Below, piece by piece: positions 1 to 15,978 of a stretch of DNA of 26,643 bases. The stretch lies in NCBI GenBank assembly GCA_036702885.1, contig DATNQC010000293.1:1-26643 (forward strand), given 5' to 3'. The notes beneath the pieces were generated by a model. It was not told the DNA's origin. It ran no database searches and saw only the letters and a program-made list of their open reading frames with translations. The stretch is from Oculatellaceae cyanobacterium. Its GTDB lineage: Bacteria; Cyanobacteriota; Vampirovibrionia; Vampirovibrionales; Vampirovibrionaceae. Each line of letters starts with the position of its first letter. Position 1 is the first letter of the stretch. A program made the position numbers and the translations under genes.

Positions 1-2
1 AC

Positions 3-470
3 ATCGGCTTGGGTGATGGTGCGCAAAACGCCAAGTTGTTCGATCAAGGTGTTGCCGAACTACAGGCTGTCACCGGACAAAAACCGGTGGTGACCCGGGC
101 GAAGAAGTCTATTGCTGGCTTTAAAATCCGTCAAGGCATGCCGATTGGCGCAAAAGTGACCCTGCGTGGTGATCGGATGTATGATTTCATTGCCAAGCTG
201 ACCGGCATCGTTCTGCCTCGGATTCGCGATTTCCGTGGTTTAAGTGCAAAAGGCTTTGATGGTCGTGGGAACTACAACCTGGGCCTGAAAGACCAGCTGG
301 TATTCCCGGAAATTAACTATGACCAGGTGCAGCGCCTGCGTGGTATGAATATCACCATTGTGACCAGCGGCCGGACCGACATGGAAGCAAAAGCCTTGCT
401 CGAGCATTTAGGCTTCCCGTTCGCCAAGGCGAAAGGCGCTGAGAACCCTCCGCAGGCGCAAGCCTCTTAA
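3..470 (+). CDS. rplE: 50S ribosomal protein L5 (5' truncated by window edge)
   Basis: [53 protein letters not shown] and GMNITIVT are L5 signatures; the frame is open to the window start. Confidence 0.98.
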
Positions 471-510
471 TCATTAGCAAGATAACGCAGGAATTTTAGG
501 AGATTCCATT

Positions 511-717
511 TTGGCAAAAACATCAATGATCGTGAAAGAGGAGAAACGTGCCGCCAAGGCTGCACGTGGTAAGTTCCCGAAGGTCAAATTGCACAATCGT
601 TGCAGTTTGTGTGGTCGTCCGCGTGGGTACTACCGCTTCTTTGGTACGTGCAGACTGTGCCTCCGTAAACTCGCCCACGAGGGTAAGCTGCCGGGTGTGC
701 TGAAATCCAGCTGGTAG
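511..717 (+). CDS. rpsN: 30S ribosomal protein S14, short zinc-binding (type Z) form
   Basis: [39 protein letters not shown] with four Cys; TTG start behind an AGGAG SD; spc operon position. Confidence 0.96.
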
Positions 718-759
718 TGAAGTAACGAACAGAAGTTTAGAAACAAGGGTAAACTGACC

Positions 760-1155
760 ATGTATAATGACCCCATTGCAGATTTGCTGACCCGCATTCG
801 GAACGCTTCGAATGCAGGCCTTCCCATGGTGGAAGTACCCGCCTCCAAGCTCAAGGTTGAGATTGTCAAACTGCTTTTGAAGGAAGGCTACATCCGGAGC
901 TATGAGATTCGCGAGGCTGGCAATCATAAGACCCTGCGGGTTTTATTGAAGTACGACGCCCAGGGCTACCCGCTGATCAGAAAACTGGTTCGCGTTAGCC
1001 GTCCTGGTCTCCGTAAATACTACAAGGCAAACAACCTGCCCAGGATCTTATCCGGTGCAGGCACGGCGATTGTCAGCACGCCCAAAGGCCTGCTGTCTGA
1101 CCGCGAGGCCCGTAAAGAAAACGTTGGCGGTGAAGTTCTCTGCTACGTGTACTAA
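760..1155 (+). CDS. rpsH: 30S ribosomal protein S8
   Basis: DPIADLLTRIRNA, SRPGLRKY, GTAIVSTPKGLLSDREAR, GGEVLCYVY. Confidence 0.98.
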   Translation: MYNDPIADLLTRIRNASNAGLPMVEVPASKLKVEIVKLLLKEGYIRSYEIREAGNHKTLRVLLKYDAQGYPLIRKLVRVSRPGLRKYYKANNLPRILSGAGTAIVSTPKGLLSDREARKENVGGEVLCYVY

Positions 1156-1205
1156 TTTCTGAGCGGCCTAAGCATTAAGACAAGAAACGGAAGGTAATTA
1201 AACCA

Positions 1206-1757
1206 ATGTCACGAATTGGCAAATCTCCAGTCCGCATTGCGGACAACGTGGAAGTTAAAATCGACGCTCATCCTAATGGTTCTACGGTAACGGTTAAAGG
1301 TCCTCTGGGGCAGTTAACGCGTACCTTCCGCCCGGAAGTGTCCTTTGCCTTGGAGGGCAATCAGGTGATTGTCTCCCGTAAGGATGACAGCCGGGAAGCT
1401 CGTTCGCTACACGGTTTAAGCCGAACGCTGTTGAACAACATGGTGTTGGGTGTCAGCACCGGTTTTTCCAAAAAGCTGGAAATCGTCGGTGTCGGCTACC
1501 GGGCGCAAGTGCAAGGCAATAAATTGGTTCTCTCTCTGGGATATAGTCATCCCGTGGAAGTAGAGGCTCCTGCCGGCATCACCTTTAAAGTCGAAGCAAA
1601 CACCAAATTGGAAGTTTCCGGTTCGGATAAGGAACTGGTTGGTCAGGTAGCTGCGCTGATTCGTAGCAAGCGGCCTCCGGAGCCCTACAAAGGCAAGGGT
1701 GTAAAATACGCGGATGAGCGGATCCGTCGCAAGGCCGGTAAAGCTGGTAAAAAATAA
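1206..1757 (+). CDS. rplF: 50S ribosomal protein L6
   Basis: [38 protein letters not shown]. Confidence 0.98.
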
Positions 1758-1801
1758 GCCGCAAGTGATTAGAGCAATAAGATTAAGCAGGTAATCGAAT
1801 T

Positions 1802-2164
1802 ATGTTGAGCAAATTGAATCGCAAGGCAATTACCCGCAAGCGCCACTACCGGTTGCGTCGCCGTCTCGCAGGTTGCGCCGAGCGTCCAAGACTCGCTGTT
1901 TATCGCAGCGGAAAACACATTTACGCTCAGGTGATTGACGATGTTCGCGCTGTAACTTTGGCTGCTGCGAGCACCGTTGAGAAGGAATTGCGGAATCAGT
2001 CCGGCGCAAATGTGGAAGCTGCTCGCAAAGTGGGCGAGCTTGTTGCAAAGCGCGCGAAAGAAGCAGGCATTACGGCTGTTGTCTTTGATCGCGGCGGCTT
2101 CCTCTATCATGGACGCATCGCGGCACTCGCAGACGCTGCGCGTGAGGCTGGTCTCGAATTTTAA
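1802..2164 (+). CDS. rplR: 50S ribosomal protein L18
   Basis: [47 protein letters not shown]. Confidence 0.98.
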
Positions 2165-2180
2165 TTTAACCACTCCACTG

Positions 2181-2210
2181 AAAAGAACCTGGTATTTGCC
2201 AGGTTCTTTT
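2181..2210 (+). terminator. Intrinsic terminator after rplR
   Basis: Perfect 12-bp inverted repeat aaaagaacctgg-tatttg-ccaggttctttt followed by ctttac, 17 nt after the rplR stop. Confidence 0.85.
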
Positions 2211-2397
2211 CTTTACAAGTCACGGTTTAAACGACAGGTTGGACTGGCGTTGAATGTCTTTTTCAGGAAAACGTACTGATATCTTCCCCCCCCCATGGAC
2301 TGAGCAGCAAGGCTGAAACCCGACAAGAATTGTCCTTCACGCTGCAATTGATTTACGCAGCCAAGTTAACCTTGAAAACCCAAGGATCGTTGCCACA

Positions 2398-4654: not shown

Positions 4655-5425
4655 GATGACCCAAGACGCCTCTTCAATACTTCTAACGATCTATCCCGCA
4701 CGCTGAATCGCTGAAATCAGTCAACAGACAGCATACTTATCAGAATCAGGAAGTATGATAACAAGCTTATAAAAGGGCCAGCCACAACTGTTACACATTT
4801 TGAAGGTAAAGTCTTGTGAAGAGATGTGGTGATGATCTCTTGGCTCACGTTAACTGCAGGTGAGCTCTTGCGTATCCTGCAGTATAGTTCGTATGATTTT
4901 GGATTGATAGCGAAAGTGCTTCCTTTAGTTCAATAGTGCTAACCTAGGGATAGGTAGAAGCATTAGTGAGCATTTTGTGCATATTGAGATGTTCTCTATT
5001 TCTCATTTCGATTGGCATTGTGAGCTTGGGTTCAATTTTGCAAAGTATTATATCTTTTGAGTGGCATCGTTTTAAGGCTTTTACAGATTTGGGGTTAATT
5101 CGTTTGTAGCACTTCGCCGGAAATCAGGATGCCTATATTTGAATCTCTCTGATAGAGTTGAGTCTCAGCGCGAAATTCAGGGAGGTGCCGGTTACAGAGA
5201 TGTGTTAGCTTGATAATCTATAGTTTATTGTTAATAGCGCTTTGCAAGAAGGTTTGTTGTGTATTTATTGATGTTGCAGCATTAGTGAGTTTTTATCTTG
5301 AATAATTTCAAACACCCAAAAGTATTCTTGATGCAAAAACTGTAAAACAGCATCTTGTAGAACAGTTTTTTTTTTGAGTTAAACAAGTTTTGTTTTTATT
5401 GATTATTGGAGGCGGAATTTAGTCA

Positions 5426-5719
5426 ATGTTGCCTTCTAATCCTGTTTCTGGTGTTAAAAATGCTGTAACGAATGTAGTGAAAAATTTTTCATCCAAAGAG
5501 GTTAGTACTTCTCACATTGGTGAGGCTGTGCCTCAAAAAGTTGAAAAGGTGGTTACTCCTTCTGTAGATGAAAGGGTGGCGGCATTAAGATCTCAGCATC
5601 CATCCTTTGTTCAGATTAAGACAAGGTTAGGGTTAGATACTGCTCCAACGCTAGAGGCTCCGCATCCTTGGGCTAAGAAATGGGCTAAAAAATGGCATAA
5701 AAAATCAGGCCGTTGGTAA
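5426..5719 (+). CDS. Putative RiPP precursor peptide (GrrA/OscA-like triceptide-type), core ending HPWAKKWAKKWHKKSGRW
   Basis: 97-aa ORF with GGAGG SD (5408-5412), 17 nt upstream of a GrrM-like radical SAM gene; C-terminus carries three Trp-X-Lys motifs. Confidence 0.8.
   Translation: MLPSNPVSGVKNAVTNVVKNFSSKEVSTSHIGEAVPQKVEKVVTPSVDERVAALRSQHPSFVQIKTRLGLDTAPTLEAPHPWAKKWAKKWHKKSGRW
5669..5704 (+). repeat. Three tandem 12-bp units encoding WxKK
   Basis: tgggctaagaaa / tgggctaaaaaa / tggcataaaaaa. Confidence 0.9.
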
Positions 5720-5736
5720 TATAAGGGGAGTGGAAC

Positions 5737-6877
5737 TTGTGTCTTAGTGTCGCACCAGGCTCTCTAGGCTTTGTCTTGTTACAGGCTAGCCAGTTTTGTA
5801 ATCTGAATTGTGATTATTGCTACATCCCGGCTACGGAGAGGACGCAATATAAATTCATGGCTCTGGAAGATGTGAAAACTATTTTTAAAAAAATTTTTCA
5901 CATCTTCTTTTTTGTCACCGGATGGTTTAACCATTTTATGGCATGCAGGGGAGCCGTTAGCAGCCCCTATTTCCTACTATGAAGATATTATAGGTTGCTT
6001 GACTGACCTTAAAAACGAATTGCTCGGTATATCCTATGAGCTGTCATTTGACATGCAAACAAATGGCACGCTTCTTAATGATGCTTGGATAGATTTTATA
6101 AAGAAACATAGGATAGGTATCGGGATTAGTTGTGACGGCCCTCAATTTCTTCATGATAGAAATAGACGTTTTTGGAAAGGGCAAGGCACATTTGAGCAGG
6201 TATTAACCGGAATACAGCTACTAAAAGAAAATAATATTGATTTTGGAGCTTTGGCAGTTATTACCCCTGAGACTTTGGCACATCCGGATGAGTTTATTCA
6301 ATTTTTCATTGATATGAAAATCCCCCATTTAGGATTATTGCCTCAAACGCCAGCGCTCCCAGGGCAAAACATGTCGATATCTAAACAAGAGTTTTATGAA
6401 AAATCATTATCATTTGTCCGACGGATAGTGCAAATTCTGGAACATTCGTCCTACAAAGTTGGGATTAGGGAGCTGGATATCGTCGCACGTGAGCTTTTTC
6501 AGCAAAGTCATGAATACTTTATTGAAACCGAGCCCTTTACAAGCATTAGTATTGATATTAATGGGAACTTTAGTACCTTTTCCCCAGACCTTTTAGGTGC
6601 ACCGTCTAAAAAATACAATAATTTTATTATTGGTAATCTTCTACAAGATACACTGGAATCTGCCGCCCAAACAGAACTCTTTAAGACTATCTACCAGGAT
6701 ATTCAGCGAGGGGTGGATGTTTGTCGTTCGGAATGCGATTATTTTTCAATTTGCCGTCAACATACTCCCTCGGATAAATATGCAGAGCATGTTGCCTTCA
6801 ATGTAAGTGAAACATATGCATGCATCTTTTCTCAGAAGGTAATTACTGATGTTTTGTTGGATAAATGTGGGGTTTGA
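5737..6877 (+). pseudogene. GrrM/OscB-like cyclophane-forming radical SAM/SPASM peptide maturase, interrupted by a +1 frameshift at about 5887-5898 (pseudogene, slippage-dependent gene or sequencing error)
   Basis: Frame 1 has LQASQFCNLNCDYCY (CxxxCxxC); frame 2 continues TILWHAGEPL, MQTNGTLL, GISCDGPQFLHDRNR, PFTSISIDINGNFSTFSPDLLG and CRSECDYFSIC...ETYAC. Removing one base from A7 or T5 joins the halves into a protein of about 380 aa. AGGGGAG SD precedes TTG 5737. Confidence 0.85.
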
Positions 6878-7069
6878 ATACATTTTCCGTTGGTGGACAA
6901 AGTTCTGTGGCTATATTGGTCAAAATAGAGATTGTCAAGCTCCTGATGCCACAAAGTTTTATCAATAGCCCTGCTATCAGGTAGTTCGCCTTCCTATAAG
7001 GAACCCCAGCTTACCTCCTATCTATGTGCGATGTGGAGATTTATGAGGATGCAGGGATAAGGGTGAGAA

Positions 7070-15054: not shown

Positions 15055-15978
15055 TTAGGATGTGGCCAAGGCAGGCATTCCGATTGGAGCCATGACTGAT
15101 TGTGGAGCCGAAGTCTGCATGCACTGCCTTTGGAATGCCTTTAAGAATTTGGGTAAGCGCTGAAGCTGCGCCCAAAGCCAATCGGGAGTTTGTGCGTCTG
15201 GGTGTTCCTCTGGGTGCGCGATGGCATGTCGGATCTTTGCCAGGTTGCGTAAAGCGCCTTGGGCTCGACTGCTATGGGTATAGGGTTCCATTTGACTTAA
15301 GTCATAGGCGGCTGTTCCCAAAACGACCAGCGTATGGGCGAGCACCGCTCTGGTTTGCTCGAACTCTGGAGCGCTAAACTCTTTTAGATTGCGGAATTCT
15401 CTCTTGAGACGGAGGGCTTCTTGCCCATGTGTTTTTATCAGGGCTGTCAATGCATCGGGTCTTGCTGCGGGCGGAGGTGCTTTAGGAATCTTGATGTTGG
15501 GTCCTGACCACCGTTGGGGTGAGGGCGCATTCAACCAGCGATGCAAAGCAGGGGCAAGACTTTTCGTGAGCTCCCAAATAGTATTTAGATCGACTTGGTC
15601 ATGATCATGGGCAATCCGGTTTCTGATTGCCTTCAAACGTTCAACCGGAAGCCCTGGATGCTGCCGATGGAAGTCGCTCGATAATAGTTGAAATTGGTTT
15701 CCAAGTTGCTCCCAGTGGTGCAAAATGGCGTTGCGCACAAATGGATTATGAAAAAACTGGTCCTTTCCGGAGTTTCTATAGGCTTGAAGCGCGTCTAAAT
15801 GTTCTTGTATTCTCTGCAGCGTGTGTGGATCTTCCGATTTTGGAAGAGCCTTGCTGAATCGATCCCTGCCAAAGTGAACAACCGCACCCGGTGAGTGTGC
15901 GACACGAATTGCCGGTCTGGGGCGGCTACACCACGCTTCAAACGGAGATAAAAATTGAATCCCCATAGAAACCCACAA
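15055..15978 (-). CDS. Protein with two tandem DUF86/HepT-like HEPN domains (start TTG 15978 or ATG 15966)
   Basis: Domain 1 (aa about 50-150): VRNAILHHWEQLG...HPGLPVERLKAIRNRIAHDHDQVDLNTIW. Domain 2 (aa about 178-285): TRAVLAHTLVVLGTAAYDL...LRNLAKIRHAIAH...DWLWAQLQRLP. Pro-rich linker between them. Confidence 0.8.
   Translation of the reverse strand: MWVSMGIQFLSPFEAWCSRPRPAIRVAHSPGAVVHFGRDRFSKALPKSEDPHTLQRIQEHLDALQAYRNSGKDQFFHNPFVRNAILHHWEQLGNQFQLLSSDFHRQHPGLPVERLKAIRNRIAHDHDQVDLNTIWELTKSLAPALHRWLNAPSPQRWSGPNIKIPKAPPPAARPDALTALIKTHGQEALRLKREFRNLKEFSAPEFEQTRAVLAHTLVVLGTAAYDLSQMEPYTHSSRAQGALRNLAKIRHAIAHPEEHPDAQTPDWLWAQLQRLPKFLKAFQRQCMQTSAPQSVMAPIGMPALATS

What the first reader, a model, noticed from the sequence alone, without database searches (positions are those of the whole stretch)
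5426..6877. Two-gene RiPP islet: precursor plus GrrM/OscB-like cyclophane-forming radical SAM, predicting an unusual cationic triceptide
Seen: a 97-aa ORF with an SD is followed 17 nt later by a radical SAM/SPASM gene with CNLNCDYC, WHAGEPL, GISCDGP, SIDINGNFSTFSPDLLG and a C-terminal Cx3Cx5C...C cluster. Established: WHAGEP and D..GNFSTFSPELL are typical of the GrrM/OscB (TIGR04261-type) maturases, which cross-link an aromatic residue to the i+2 residue (Omega-X-X cyclophanes, triceptides). Inference: this precursor is Lys/Trp-rich rather than Gly/Asn-rich like typical GrrA cores, so the product would be a new chemotype, in a lineage not known to me for such RiPPs. No protease or transporter is encoded nearby.
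Basis: partly seen in the sequence, partly recalled or inferred. Interest (0 to 1): 0.85.

Follow-up and report, generated by a model that had tools for sequence, protein, structure and literature searches.

The report
Lysine-tryptophan cyclophane peptide gene pair
A small foreign DNA islet in a non-photosynthetic relative of cyanobacteria carries a peptide gene and a radical SAM enzyme of the known GrrM/OscB "triceptide" family. The peptide (Trp-x-Lys-Lys repeats) and the enzyme are both unusual for that family, so it is a new variant of a known system, not a new kind.

Summary
A 97-aa ORF (5426-5719) lies 17 nt upstream of a radical SAM gene (5737-6877) that scores 358 bits on TIGR04261 GrrM/OscB (cut-off 310). 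Its best fold match is the triceptide synthase ChlB.

The +1 frameshift is one extra T in the run 5894-5898. Only the probable source sample carries it. A JGI contig and contigs from three other samples have T4 and an intact 379-aa protein.

The pair sits in a roughly 2.2-kb islet of 39% GC (flanks 51%), inserted between minC and gdhA. Two syntenic relatives lack the islet, and none of 40 related genomes has a GrrM gene.

The enzyme is an outlier:
- It is at most 41% identical to any relative and sits on a very long branch.
- It differs at 22 of 88 family-conserved positions, but keeps every cluster cysteine and the catalytic motifs.

The precursor shares the family's leader motif. Its core, WAKK-WAKK-WHKK-SGRW, has no Asn, Asp or Gly repeats and no signal-like N-terminus, and it has no homologue.

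Three Trp-to-Lys C-beta cyclophanes are the most likely product, but this is untested. The scan has met GrrM/OscB loci many times on other DNA. This is a new variant of a known kind, of moderate interest.

The parts
4825..7069 (.). Low-GC islet (39.1% GC against 51.3% for the rest of the window), inserted in the minC-gdhA intergenic region
   Evidence: Composition. Syntenic relatives L174 and L175 keep minE-minD-minC and gdhA-S4-enolase, with only about 250-450 bp between minC and gdhA. No tRNA, flanking repeats or Rfam match were found.
5408..5412 (+). Shine-Dalgarno GGAGG, 13 nt before the precursor ATG
   Evidence: Read directly from the sequence.
5426..5719 (+). Precursor peptide gene (97 aa, P0001): leader residues 1-81, core residues 82-97
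   Evidence: It lies upstream of the maturase on the same strand. The identical protein is on 22 public contigs and has no other homologue. It has no NCBIfam or Pfam hit.
5564..5590 (+). Leader motif VDERVAALR (residues 47-55), the likely recognition helix shared with GrrM-associated precursors
   Evidence: The pattern [ILV]..R[ILVM]..[ILVM][RKQ] occurs in 37 of 91 family precursors against 7 of 523 decoy ORFs. Eight of the top 10 phmmer hits of the leader are real precursors aligned on this motif. No single hit is significant on its own (E 0.43).
5669..5716 (+). Core WAKK-WAKK-WHKK-SGRW: three Trp-x-Lys motifs from a 12-bp tandem repeat, net charge +7, preceded by His-Pro
5737..6877 (+). GrrM/OscB-family radical SAM peptide maturase (TTG start; 379 aa when the T-run is T4)
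   Evidence: TIGR04261 358 bits against a cut-off of 310. Intact 379-aa form P0002. AlphaFold2 model pLDDT 88.6, pTM 0.87. Best PDB fold is ChlB, TM 0.79-0.81.
5797..5820 (+). Radical SAM cluster motif C21-x3-C25-x2-C28
   Evidence: invariant columns.
5894..5898 (+). T5 run holding the +1 frameshift. It is T4 elsewhere and lies at the centre of a 21-nt palindrome (5866-5907).
6335..6358 (+). Loop after strand beta-6 (residues 200-207, LLPQTPAL), where the family has the conserved F-N-x-E-E-x-E-G
   Evidence: It is the lowest-confidence block of the catalytic barrel in the model (pLDDT 68).
6722..6823 (+). Auxiliary-cluster cysteines C329-x3-C333-x5-C339...C362. The family's CGGG reads CRQH here.
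   Evidence: The alignment to anSMEcpe shows that the Aux I ligands C255, C261 and C276 have no counterpart in this family.

Best explanation
This is a self-contained, horizontally acquired two-gene triceptide cassette.

Shown:
- The maturase belongs to the GrrM/OscB family of three-residue cyclophane-forming radical SAM enzymes.
- The upstream ORF has the family's leader motif and C-terminal aromatic-x-x repeats.
- The pair lies in a foreign, low-GC insertion.
- The gene is intact in most samples.

Inferred:
1. The enzyme binds the leader around VDERVAALR.
2. It abstracts a C-beta hydrogen from the Lys at i+2 of each Trp (W82-A-K84, W86-A-K88, W90-H-K92).
3. It forms three Trp-to-Lys C-C cyclophanes, for a loss of 6 Da.
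4. A protease encoded elsewhere cuts before the first ring, plausibly after His-Pro. This would release a peptide of about 16 residues with three rings and net charge about +7.

The remodelled post-beta-6 loop and the CRQH segment are read as re-tooling for a Lys-only, Gly-free substrate. The T5 frameshift is either a homopolymer error or a null allele confined to the source sample.
For: - Family: TIGR04261 358 bits against a cut-off of 310, and no other family near its cut-off.
- Fold: the best match is the triceptide synthase ChlB (TM 0.79-0.81), then anSME.
- Conserved residues: all three radical SAM cysteines and four auxiliary cysteines are kept, as are WHAGEPL, QTNGT, SxDGP and GNFSTFSP(D/E)LL.
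- Intact allele: T4 in a JGI contig that is 99.95% identical over 14.9 kb, and in contigs of three independent runs from compost, sludge and a fungus metagenome.
- Leader motif: enriched in family precursors and present here. The weakly supported sister clade (L160, L156, L146) has PSLxxRVxA(L/V)R against PSVDERVAALR here.
- W-x-K sites occur in other GrrM-associated cores: Tumidithrix WIK/WQK/WVK, L102 WSK x2, and L137 WNK and WSK.
- Cross-linking at Lys C-beta of aromatic-x-Lys is established in other clades: HtkB (PMC11499958), MicB YSK and FTK (PMC12912966), and DarE (PMC9055067).
- Foreign origin: 39% against 51% GC, and the insertion is absent from syntenic L174 and L175.
Against: - No experiment has been done.
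- By the review I could read (PMC11002830), OscB links Trp or Phe to Asn or Asp, not Lys.
- The enzyme differs at 22 of 88 positions that are at least 90% conserved in 158 family members. The median is 1 and the next highest is 11. The changes include C118I, loss of N201, E203, E204, E206 and G207, and GGG340-342 to RQH. Its branch length is 1.57 against a median of 0.12. This could equally mean decay.
- The leader similarity is not significant as a single hit.
- The precursor lacks the hydrophobic N-terminus seen in 73% of family precursors.
- No protease or exporter is nearby.
- The source sample carries a frameshifted allele, and Logan's own contigs of that run show it too.
Confidence: 0.58

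Rival explanations
1. The islet is a decaying remnant of a transferred cassette. The maturase has lost activity through relaxed selection, and no modified peptide is made.
For: - Very long branch, and 22 of 88 conserved positions changed, several of them non-conservative.
- A frameshifted allele in the source sample.
- No protease, exporter or signal peptide.
- About 600 bp of non-coding low-GC DNA upstream with no recognisable promoter.
Against: - The 379-codon frame is open in 39%-GC DNA in at least four independent assemblies.
- Every cluster ligand and catalytic motif is kept, and the changes cluster in two segments instead of being scattered.
- The model folds confidently.
- The precursor ORF, both Shine-Dalgarno sites and the three-fold repeat are intact.
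Confidence: 0.2
2. The pair is active but makes another cross-link than Trp(i) to Lys(i+2) C-beta. Examples are Lys to Trp in the opposite register (K-K-W), a four-residue ring to the second Lys, a His-centred H-K-K ring, or another carbon of Lys.
For: - The enzyme has lost the family's N-x-E-E-x-E-G loop and is far from any characterised member.
- WHKK offers overlapping W-H-K and H-K-K motifs.
- Related radical SAM enzymes make Lys-Trp links of other topologies, such as StrB and WgkB, or link at Arg C-gamma, as WprB does (PMC11851443).
Against: Characterised members of this family, and of the wider triceptide class, link the aromatic ring to C-beta of i+2 (PMC11002830, PMC11499958). The period-4 repeat places Lys at i+2 of every internal Trp.
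Confidence: 0.15
3. The 97-aa ORF is not the substrate. The maturase acts on a peptide encoded elsewhere, and the ORF is fortuitous or has another role.
For: - No significant sequence match of the ORF to any protein.
- The leader HMM hit is not significant.
- A second GrrM-type gene with its own small ORF exists on contig C93.
Against: - The ORF has the same strand, a 17-nt spacing, its own Shine-Dalgarno site and the same low GC.
- It travels with the enzyme on all contigs seen.
- It has C-terminal aromatic-x-x repeats and the leader motif at the usual place.
- This matches the arrangement next to homologous enzymes.
Confidence: 0.05

Closest known systems
OscA/OscB = GrrA/GrrM (GRRM system; NCBIfam TIGR04260 and TIGR04261), cyanobacterial triceptides
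   Same: - The enzyme passes the TIGR04261 cut-off.
- It is 39% identical to the enzyme of Oscillatoriales cyanobacterium CG2_30_40_61 (L052), the organism an unchecked earlier scan note gives as the source of OscB.
- The precursor lies upstream on the same strand, with multiple aromatic-x-x motifs and the ERxAxxR-type leader motif.
   Different: - The precursor does not match TIGR04260.
- There are no Gly repeats, no Asn or Asp at X3 and no hydrophobic N-terminus.
- The enzyme lacks the family's C118, the N-x-E-E-x-E-G loop and CGGG.
- The host is a non-photosynthetic lineage in which 0 of 40 relatives have the family.
Tumidithrix elongata GrrM/OscB (P0007) with its 98-aa precursor (L009/L019)
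   Same: It is the only other pair found with three or more Trp-x-Lys sites (WIK, WQK, WVK) and a Lys/Arg-rich, Gly-poor core. Its leader has RDRIAAVQ.
   Different: - The enzymes are only 40% identical and are not sisters on the tree.
- The Tumidithrix enzyme keeps the conserved family residues.
- Its precursor has a signal-like N-terminus and also a WGD site, and it weakly matches TIGR04260 (22 bits).
- ABC, FtsX and M50 genes lie nearby.
HtkB, MicB and DarE: radical SAM enzymes that link an aromatic ring to Lys C-beta at i+2
   Same: They carry out the chemistry predicted here: aromatic-x-Lys with a link to Lys C-beta. The motifs are HTK (PMC11499958), YSK and FTK (PMC12912966), and W-S-K in darobactin (PMC9055067).
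   Different: They belong to other clades. DarE scores 94 bits and DynA 134 bits here, far below their cut-offs. In HtkB an Asp (D214) selects Lys at X3. I could not map the equivalent residue here.
ChlB (PDB 9gm3, 9gmc), cyanobacterial multiple-cyclophane synthase
   Same: It is the best structural match to the model (TM 0.79-0.81, E 1e-24), and it acts on several motifs in one precursor.
   Different: It is only about 21% identical and belongs to another family. Its native motifs are Tyr-based (YDR, per PMC11499958).

Membership tests
GrrM/OscB maturase (NCBIfam TIGR04261) | Whole-protein HMM score above the curated cut-off (310 bits) | tested here: met
   358.2 bits, E 4.7e-107, covering model positions 1-360 of 363. 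The unmended large frame alone gives 319 bits.
GrrM/OscB maturase (NCBIfam TIGR04261) | Radical SAM CX3CX2C motif plus the C-terminal four-Cys auxiliary cluster motif | tested here: met
   C21, C25, C28, C329, C333, C339 and C362 are all in invariant columns.
GrrM/OscB maturase (NCBIfam TIGR04261) | Family-conserved residues outside the clusters (C118, F-N-x-E-E-x-E-G at 200-207, CGGG at 339-342, N346) | tested here: not met
   Here these read I118, LLPQTPAL, CRQH and D346. In all, 22 of 88 columns that are at least 90% conserved differ, against a median of 1 and a next-highest of 11 among 158 members.
GrrM/OscB maturase (NCBIfam TIGR04261) | An intact reading frame | tested here: inconclusive
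   The frame is broken by one T in the window and in Logan's contig of the probable source run. It is intact in a JGI contig and in three other runs. The sequencing platform of the source run is not on record.
GrrA/OscA1 precursor (NCBIfam TIGR04260) | HMM match to the Gly-rich repeat precursor | tested here: not met
   No hit at E <= 0.01. The positive control L043 scores 84.9 bits and Tumidithrix scores 22 bits, below the cut-off of 31.
GrrA/OscA1 precursor (NCBIfam TIGR04260) | Asn or Asp at X3 of the aromatic-x-x motifs | tested here: not met
   The core has no Asn or Asp, and X3 is Lys in all three motifs.
Triceptides (three-residue cyclophane RiPPs) | A precursor with aromatic1-X2-X3 motifs encoded beside a radical SAM cyclophane synthase | tested here: met
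   WAK, WAK and WHK lie 17 nt upstream of the maturase. The enzyme's fold is nearest to ChlB.
Triceptides (three-residue cyclophane RiPPs) | A C-C bond from the aromatic ring to C-beta of residue i+2 (-2 Da per ring) | not testable with these tools
   This needs co-expression, MS/MS and NMR.

The most novel reading that the evidence does not exclude
A re-tooled GrrM-family enzyme has replaced the family's acidic post-beta-6 loop. It makes three consecutive Trp-Lys cyclophanes on a Gly-free (W-x-K-K)3 core. This would be the first Lys-directed member of the GRR clade. Its product would be a stapled, polycationic Trp/Lys peptide, resembling a membrane-active antimicrobial peptide, made by a Vampirovibrionales-like bacterium that acquired the cassette by transfer.
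Probability: 0.3. Interest if true: 0.55.

Novelty: new variant of a known kind. Interest (0 to 1): 0.4.

Why it matters
Triceptide synthases are being explored as tools for stapling peptides, and the rules that set the X3 residue are only starting to be worked out (HtkB D214 and HaaB H204, PMC11499958). This pair is a minimal natural test case of two genes. It pairs a GRR-clade enzyme that has lost the family's conserved acidic loop with a substrate that has only Lys at X3. If active, it would extend the GRR clade from Asn/Asp to Lys. It would also give a compact route to a tricyclic cationic peptide. It also records the family in a non-photosynthetic cyanobacterial relative, where it appears as a recent insertion. 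If inactive, it is an example of a transferred RiPP cassette decaying in a small genome.

Tried and rejected
- Precursor homologues: a word-index search of 5.8 billion proteins found only the protein itself. A back-translated pattern scan of genome contigs found nothing.
- Closer enzyme relatives: the best is 41% identical in the protein collection, in GTDB genome contigs and in JGI metagenomes.
- Leader homology: an HMM of 89 family leaders gave E 0.43 and rank 3 of 524 window ORFs, which is not significant. Single phmmer hits were also not significant. Only the rank enrichment and a pattern chosen after seeing the data support it.
- Mobile-element marks at the islet borders: no tRNA, flanking direct repeats, transposase-size ORF or Rfam match. 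No convincing promoter or terminator.
- anSME or another non-peptide SPASM family as the best match: rejected.
- A link between W-x-K cores and the loss of the acidic loop: rejected, because the Tumidithrix enzyme keeps the loop.
- Papers that could settle whether OscB accepts Lys at X3 are not held. These are Nguyen 2020, Sugiyama 2022, Purushothaman 2024, Suarez 2024 and Ruel 2025.
- The residue equivalent to HtkB D214 could not be mapped, because no HtkB sequence was available and the model gives no coordinates.

Full report
**1. Observation**

- GGAGG lies at 5408-5412.
- An ATG at 5426 opens a 97-aa ORF that ends at TAA 5717-5719.
- After a 17-nt spacer containing AAGGGGAG, a TTG at 5737 opens a radical SAM gene that ends at 6877.

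The gene is split by a +1 shift inside T5 A7 T5 (5882-5898). Frame 1 carries FCNLNCDYCY and stops at 5982. Frame 2 is open from 5912 to 6877. Read through with an X at the break, the 380-aa protein has WHAGEPL, QTNGT, GISCDGP, INGNFSTFSPDLL and C329-x3-C333-x5-C339...C362.

**2. Family**

The mended protein scores 358.2 bits (E 4.7e-107) on NCBIfam TIGR04261, [quoted passage not shown]. This is above the curated cut-off of 310 and covers nearly the full model.

The next families are all far below their own cut-offs:
- AmcB: 231 of 425 bits.
- anSME: 158 of 349.
- YhhB: 146 of 445.
- DynA: 134 of 450.
- FxsB: 102 of 370.
- XyeB: 72 of 450.

Pfam sees only Radical_SAM. An AlphaFold2 model built on a 23-sequence alignment is confident (pLDDT 88.6, pTM 0.87). 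Its best PDB matches are the triceptide synthase ChlB (TM 0.79-0.81) and then anSMEcpe. The profile alignment to anSMEcpe shows that this family has no counterparts of the Aux I ligands C255, C261 and C276. The four C-terminal cysteines therefore correspond to a single auxiliary cluster.

**3. The frameshift**

A JGI metagenome contig (L008) is 99.95% identical to the window over 14.9 kb and encodes an intact 379-aa protein, P0002.

The two assemblies differ by three substitutions and three indels. All three indels are in homopolymers, and the window has the longer run each time:
- C9 against C8 at 2286.
- T10 against T8 at 5366.
- T5 against T4 at 5894.

Contigs from three independent public runs (compost, sludge and a fungus metagenome) cover 5300-7000 with no substitutions and carry T4 and T8. 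The run that is probably the window's source carries T5 and T10. So the intact allele is the common one.

I cannot tell whether T5 is an error of that data set or a real null allele in that population, because its library type is not on record. The indel-to-substitution ratio of 1:1 leans towards error. Against that, Logan's independent contigs of the same run also show T5, which leans towards a real variant.

**4. Context and host**

The pair lies in a stretch of 39% GC, while the rest of the window is 51%. The flanks are housekeeping genes:
- On one side: ribosomal proteins and minE-minD-minC.
- On the other side: gdhA, an S4-domain protein, enolase, a ribosome hibernation factor, DUF58 and ychF.
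- Further on: dehydrogenase, aminotransferase, GGDEF/HD, TPR and uppS genes.

There is no peptidase and no transporter in the window.

The enolase is 88% identical to that of a soil MAG labelled Coleofasciculaceae (L174). It is 76% identical to an uncultured Vampirovibrionales MAG (L175) and 72% to a Gastranaerophilales MAG. Neither the window's genome (72% complete) nor the genomes of L174 and L175 has PsaA/PsaB. The window's genome also has no PsbA/PsbD-type protein. The host is therefore most likely a non-photosynthetic Vampirovibrionia-type bacterium, and the Coleofasciculaceae label looks wrong.

L174 and L175 keep the gene order but have only about 250-450 bp between minC and gdhA, against 2.4 kb here. 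So about 2.2 kb (roughly 4825-7069) is an insertion. I found no tRNA, flanking repeats or mobile-element genes at its borders.

Among 40 genomes of the same family or order, none has a match to TIGR04261 above the cut-off. The three hits are weak matches of 46-52 bits to other radical SAM proteins.

**5. How the enzyme compares with its family**

No relative is closer than 41% identity in the 5.8-billion-protein collection, in GTDB genome contigs or in JGI metagenomes. The relatives are mostly cyanobacterial, with some from Verrucomicrobiota, Acidobacteriota and others.

In a FastTree of 158 family members, the window's enzyme has a terminal branch of 1.57 substitutions per site, against a median of 0.12. 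Its placement beside three soil or peat metagenome sequences is weakly supported, at 0.22.

Of 88 alignment columns that are at least 90% conserved, it differs at 22. The median is 1, the 95th percentile is 8 and the next highest is 11. About half of the changes are conservative. The non-conservative ones cluster in a few places:
- C118 to I.
- The loop after strand beta-6, where F-N-x-E-E-x-E-G becomes L-L-P-Q-T-P-A-L (residues 200-207).
- C339-G-G-G becomes C-R-Q-H.

All cluster cysteines and the catalytic motifs are kept. This pattern fits re-tooling of substrate-facing parts better than random decay, but it does not exclude loss of activity.

**6. The precursor**

P0001 has no Pfam or NCBIfam match, including the GrrA/OscA1 model TIGR04260. 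That model scores 85 bits on a typical Gly-rich precursor and 22 bits on the Tumidithrix one. The large protein collection holds only P0001 itself, on 22 contigs.

I collected candidate precursors upstream of 165 homologous enzymes. Their cores are of three main kinds:
- Gly-rich, with F/W-R-N-G-G repeats.
- W-x-N arrays.
- W-x-D arrays.

In the last 30 residues of 91 such peptides, Lys has a median of 0 and a maximum of 2, and Asn plus Asp has a median of 7. The window's peptide has 6 Lys, and no Asn or Asp in the core.

Net positive charge is not unusual in itself, because many GrrA cores are Arg-rich. W-x-K sites do occur elsewhere: WIK, WQK and WVK in Tumidithrix elongata (whose enzyme NCBI names GrrM/OscB), and WSK or WNK sites in two metagenome loci.

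A leader motif is shared. It reads (I/L/V)-x-(E/D)-R-(L/V/I)-x-x-(L/V/I)-(R/K/Q). The window has VDERVAALR at residues 47-55, and the nearest tree neighbours have PSLxxRVxA(L/V)R.

The statistical support for this motif is weak:
- A leader HMM gives E 0.43.
- Eight of the top ten phmmer hits of the leader are true precursors, where 15% would be expected.
- A pattern chosen after seeing the data is in 37 of 91 precursors against 7 of 523 decoy ORFs.

Unlike 73% of family precursors, this one has no hydrophobic N-terminal stretch.

The core is a 12-bp unit repeated 3.1 times. It encodes WAKK-WAKK-WHKK, followed by SGRW and the stop codon.

**7. Mechanism**

From the papers I could read:
- OscB links Trp C7 or Phe C4 to C-beta of Asn or Asp two residues on (PMC11002830).
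- Cross-linking to Lys C-beta at i+2 is established for HtkB (HTK, and non-native FTK and WTK; PMC11499958), for MicB (YSK and FTK; PMC12912966) and for DarE (PMC9055067).
- In MicA a Pro precedes the first ring, and characterised triceptides are cleaved before the first cyclophane (PMC12912966). Here His-Pro precedes W82.

The most likely working is therefore as follows:
1. The enzyme binds the leader.
2. It forms three successive Trp-to-Lys C-beta rings at W82/K84, W86/K88 and W90/K92.
3. A protease encoded elsewhere cleaves the leader.

These three steps are inferred, not shown. I put this at about 0.58. I put an inactive remnant at 0.2, another cross-link topology at 0.15, and the ORF not being the substrate at 0.05.

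**8. Novelty**

The family is well known. The literature counts about 3,900 putative triceptide pathways (PMC11499958). This scan has already noted GrrM/OscB loci 125 times in at least 90 genomes, and follow-ups mostly judged them ordinary.

What is particular here:
- A Lys-only, Gly-free, signal-less core.
- An enzyme that is the clear outlier of its family at conserved positions.
- A minimal two-gene layout.
- Recent insertion into a lineage that otherwise lacks the family.

I rate it a new variant of a known kind, with interest 0.4.

Noticed in passing
G000 contig C93 (locus L006) 3-404 (-) and 352-555 (-): A second, different GrrM-type radical SAM gene fragment lies at a contig end. It scores 118 bits over the first 100 model positions and is 41% identical to the window's enzyme. 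An upstream 67-aa ORF ends in STLWGNQWTRRQ (WGN and WTR motifs). The contig is 1.8 kb and 45% GC, with Dps and SLH-domain genes, so it may be mis-binned.
   Followed up: partly
window 5866-5907: The frameshift-prone A7T5 run sits at the centre of a 21-nt, 90% complementary palindrome inside the coding sequence. Its significance, if any, is unknown.
   Followed up: no
window 2286 and 5366-5367: The other two indel differences from the second assembly are also homopolymer length changes (C9 against C8, T10 against T8). The window has the longer run each time. One lies about 60 nt upstream of the precursor gene.
   Followed up: partly
L174 (DATNPJ010000027.1, labelled Coleofasciculaceae cyanobacterium): This is the closest named relative (enolase 88% identical, same gene order). 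Its 3.3-Mb genome has no PsaA/PsaB match, and it groups with Vampirovibrionales-type MAGs. The public taxonomic label is probably wrong.
   Followed up: partly
window 5300-7000 in public runs: At least 20 public runs hold this stretch nearly word for word. They come from soil, compost, sludge and 'fungus metagenome' samples. The organism and its islet are therefore widespread and nearly clonal across samples.
   Followed up: partly
window 1-2300: The ribosomal protein cluster (L24, L5, S8, L6, L18) stops after L18. It is followed by a short ORF and the convergent minE-minD-minC genes, not by S5, L30, L15 and SecY.
   Followed up: no
window 15055-15978 (-): The 307-aa ORF flagged elsewhere as a tandem HEPN protein gives one Pfam HepT-like match (residues 57-147, E 1.3e-12). 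A second unit was not detected at E <= 0.001.
   Followed up: no
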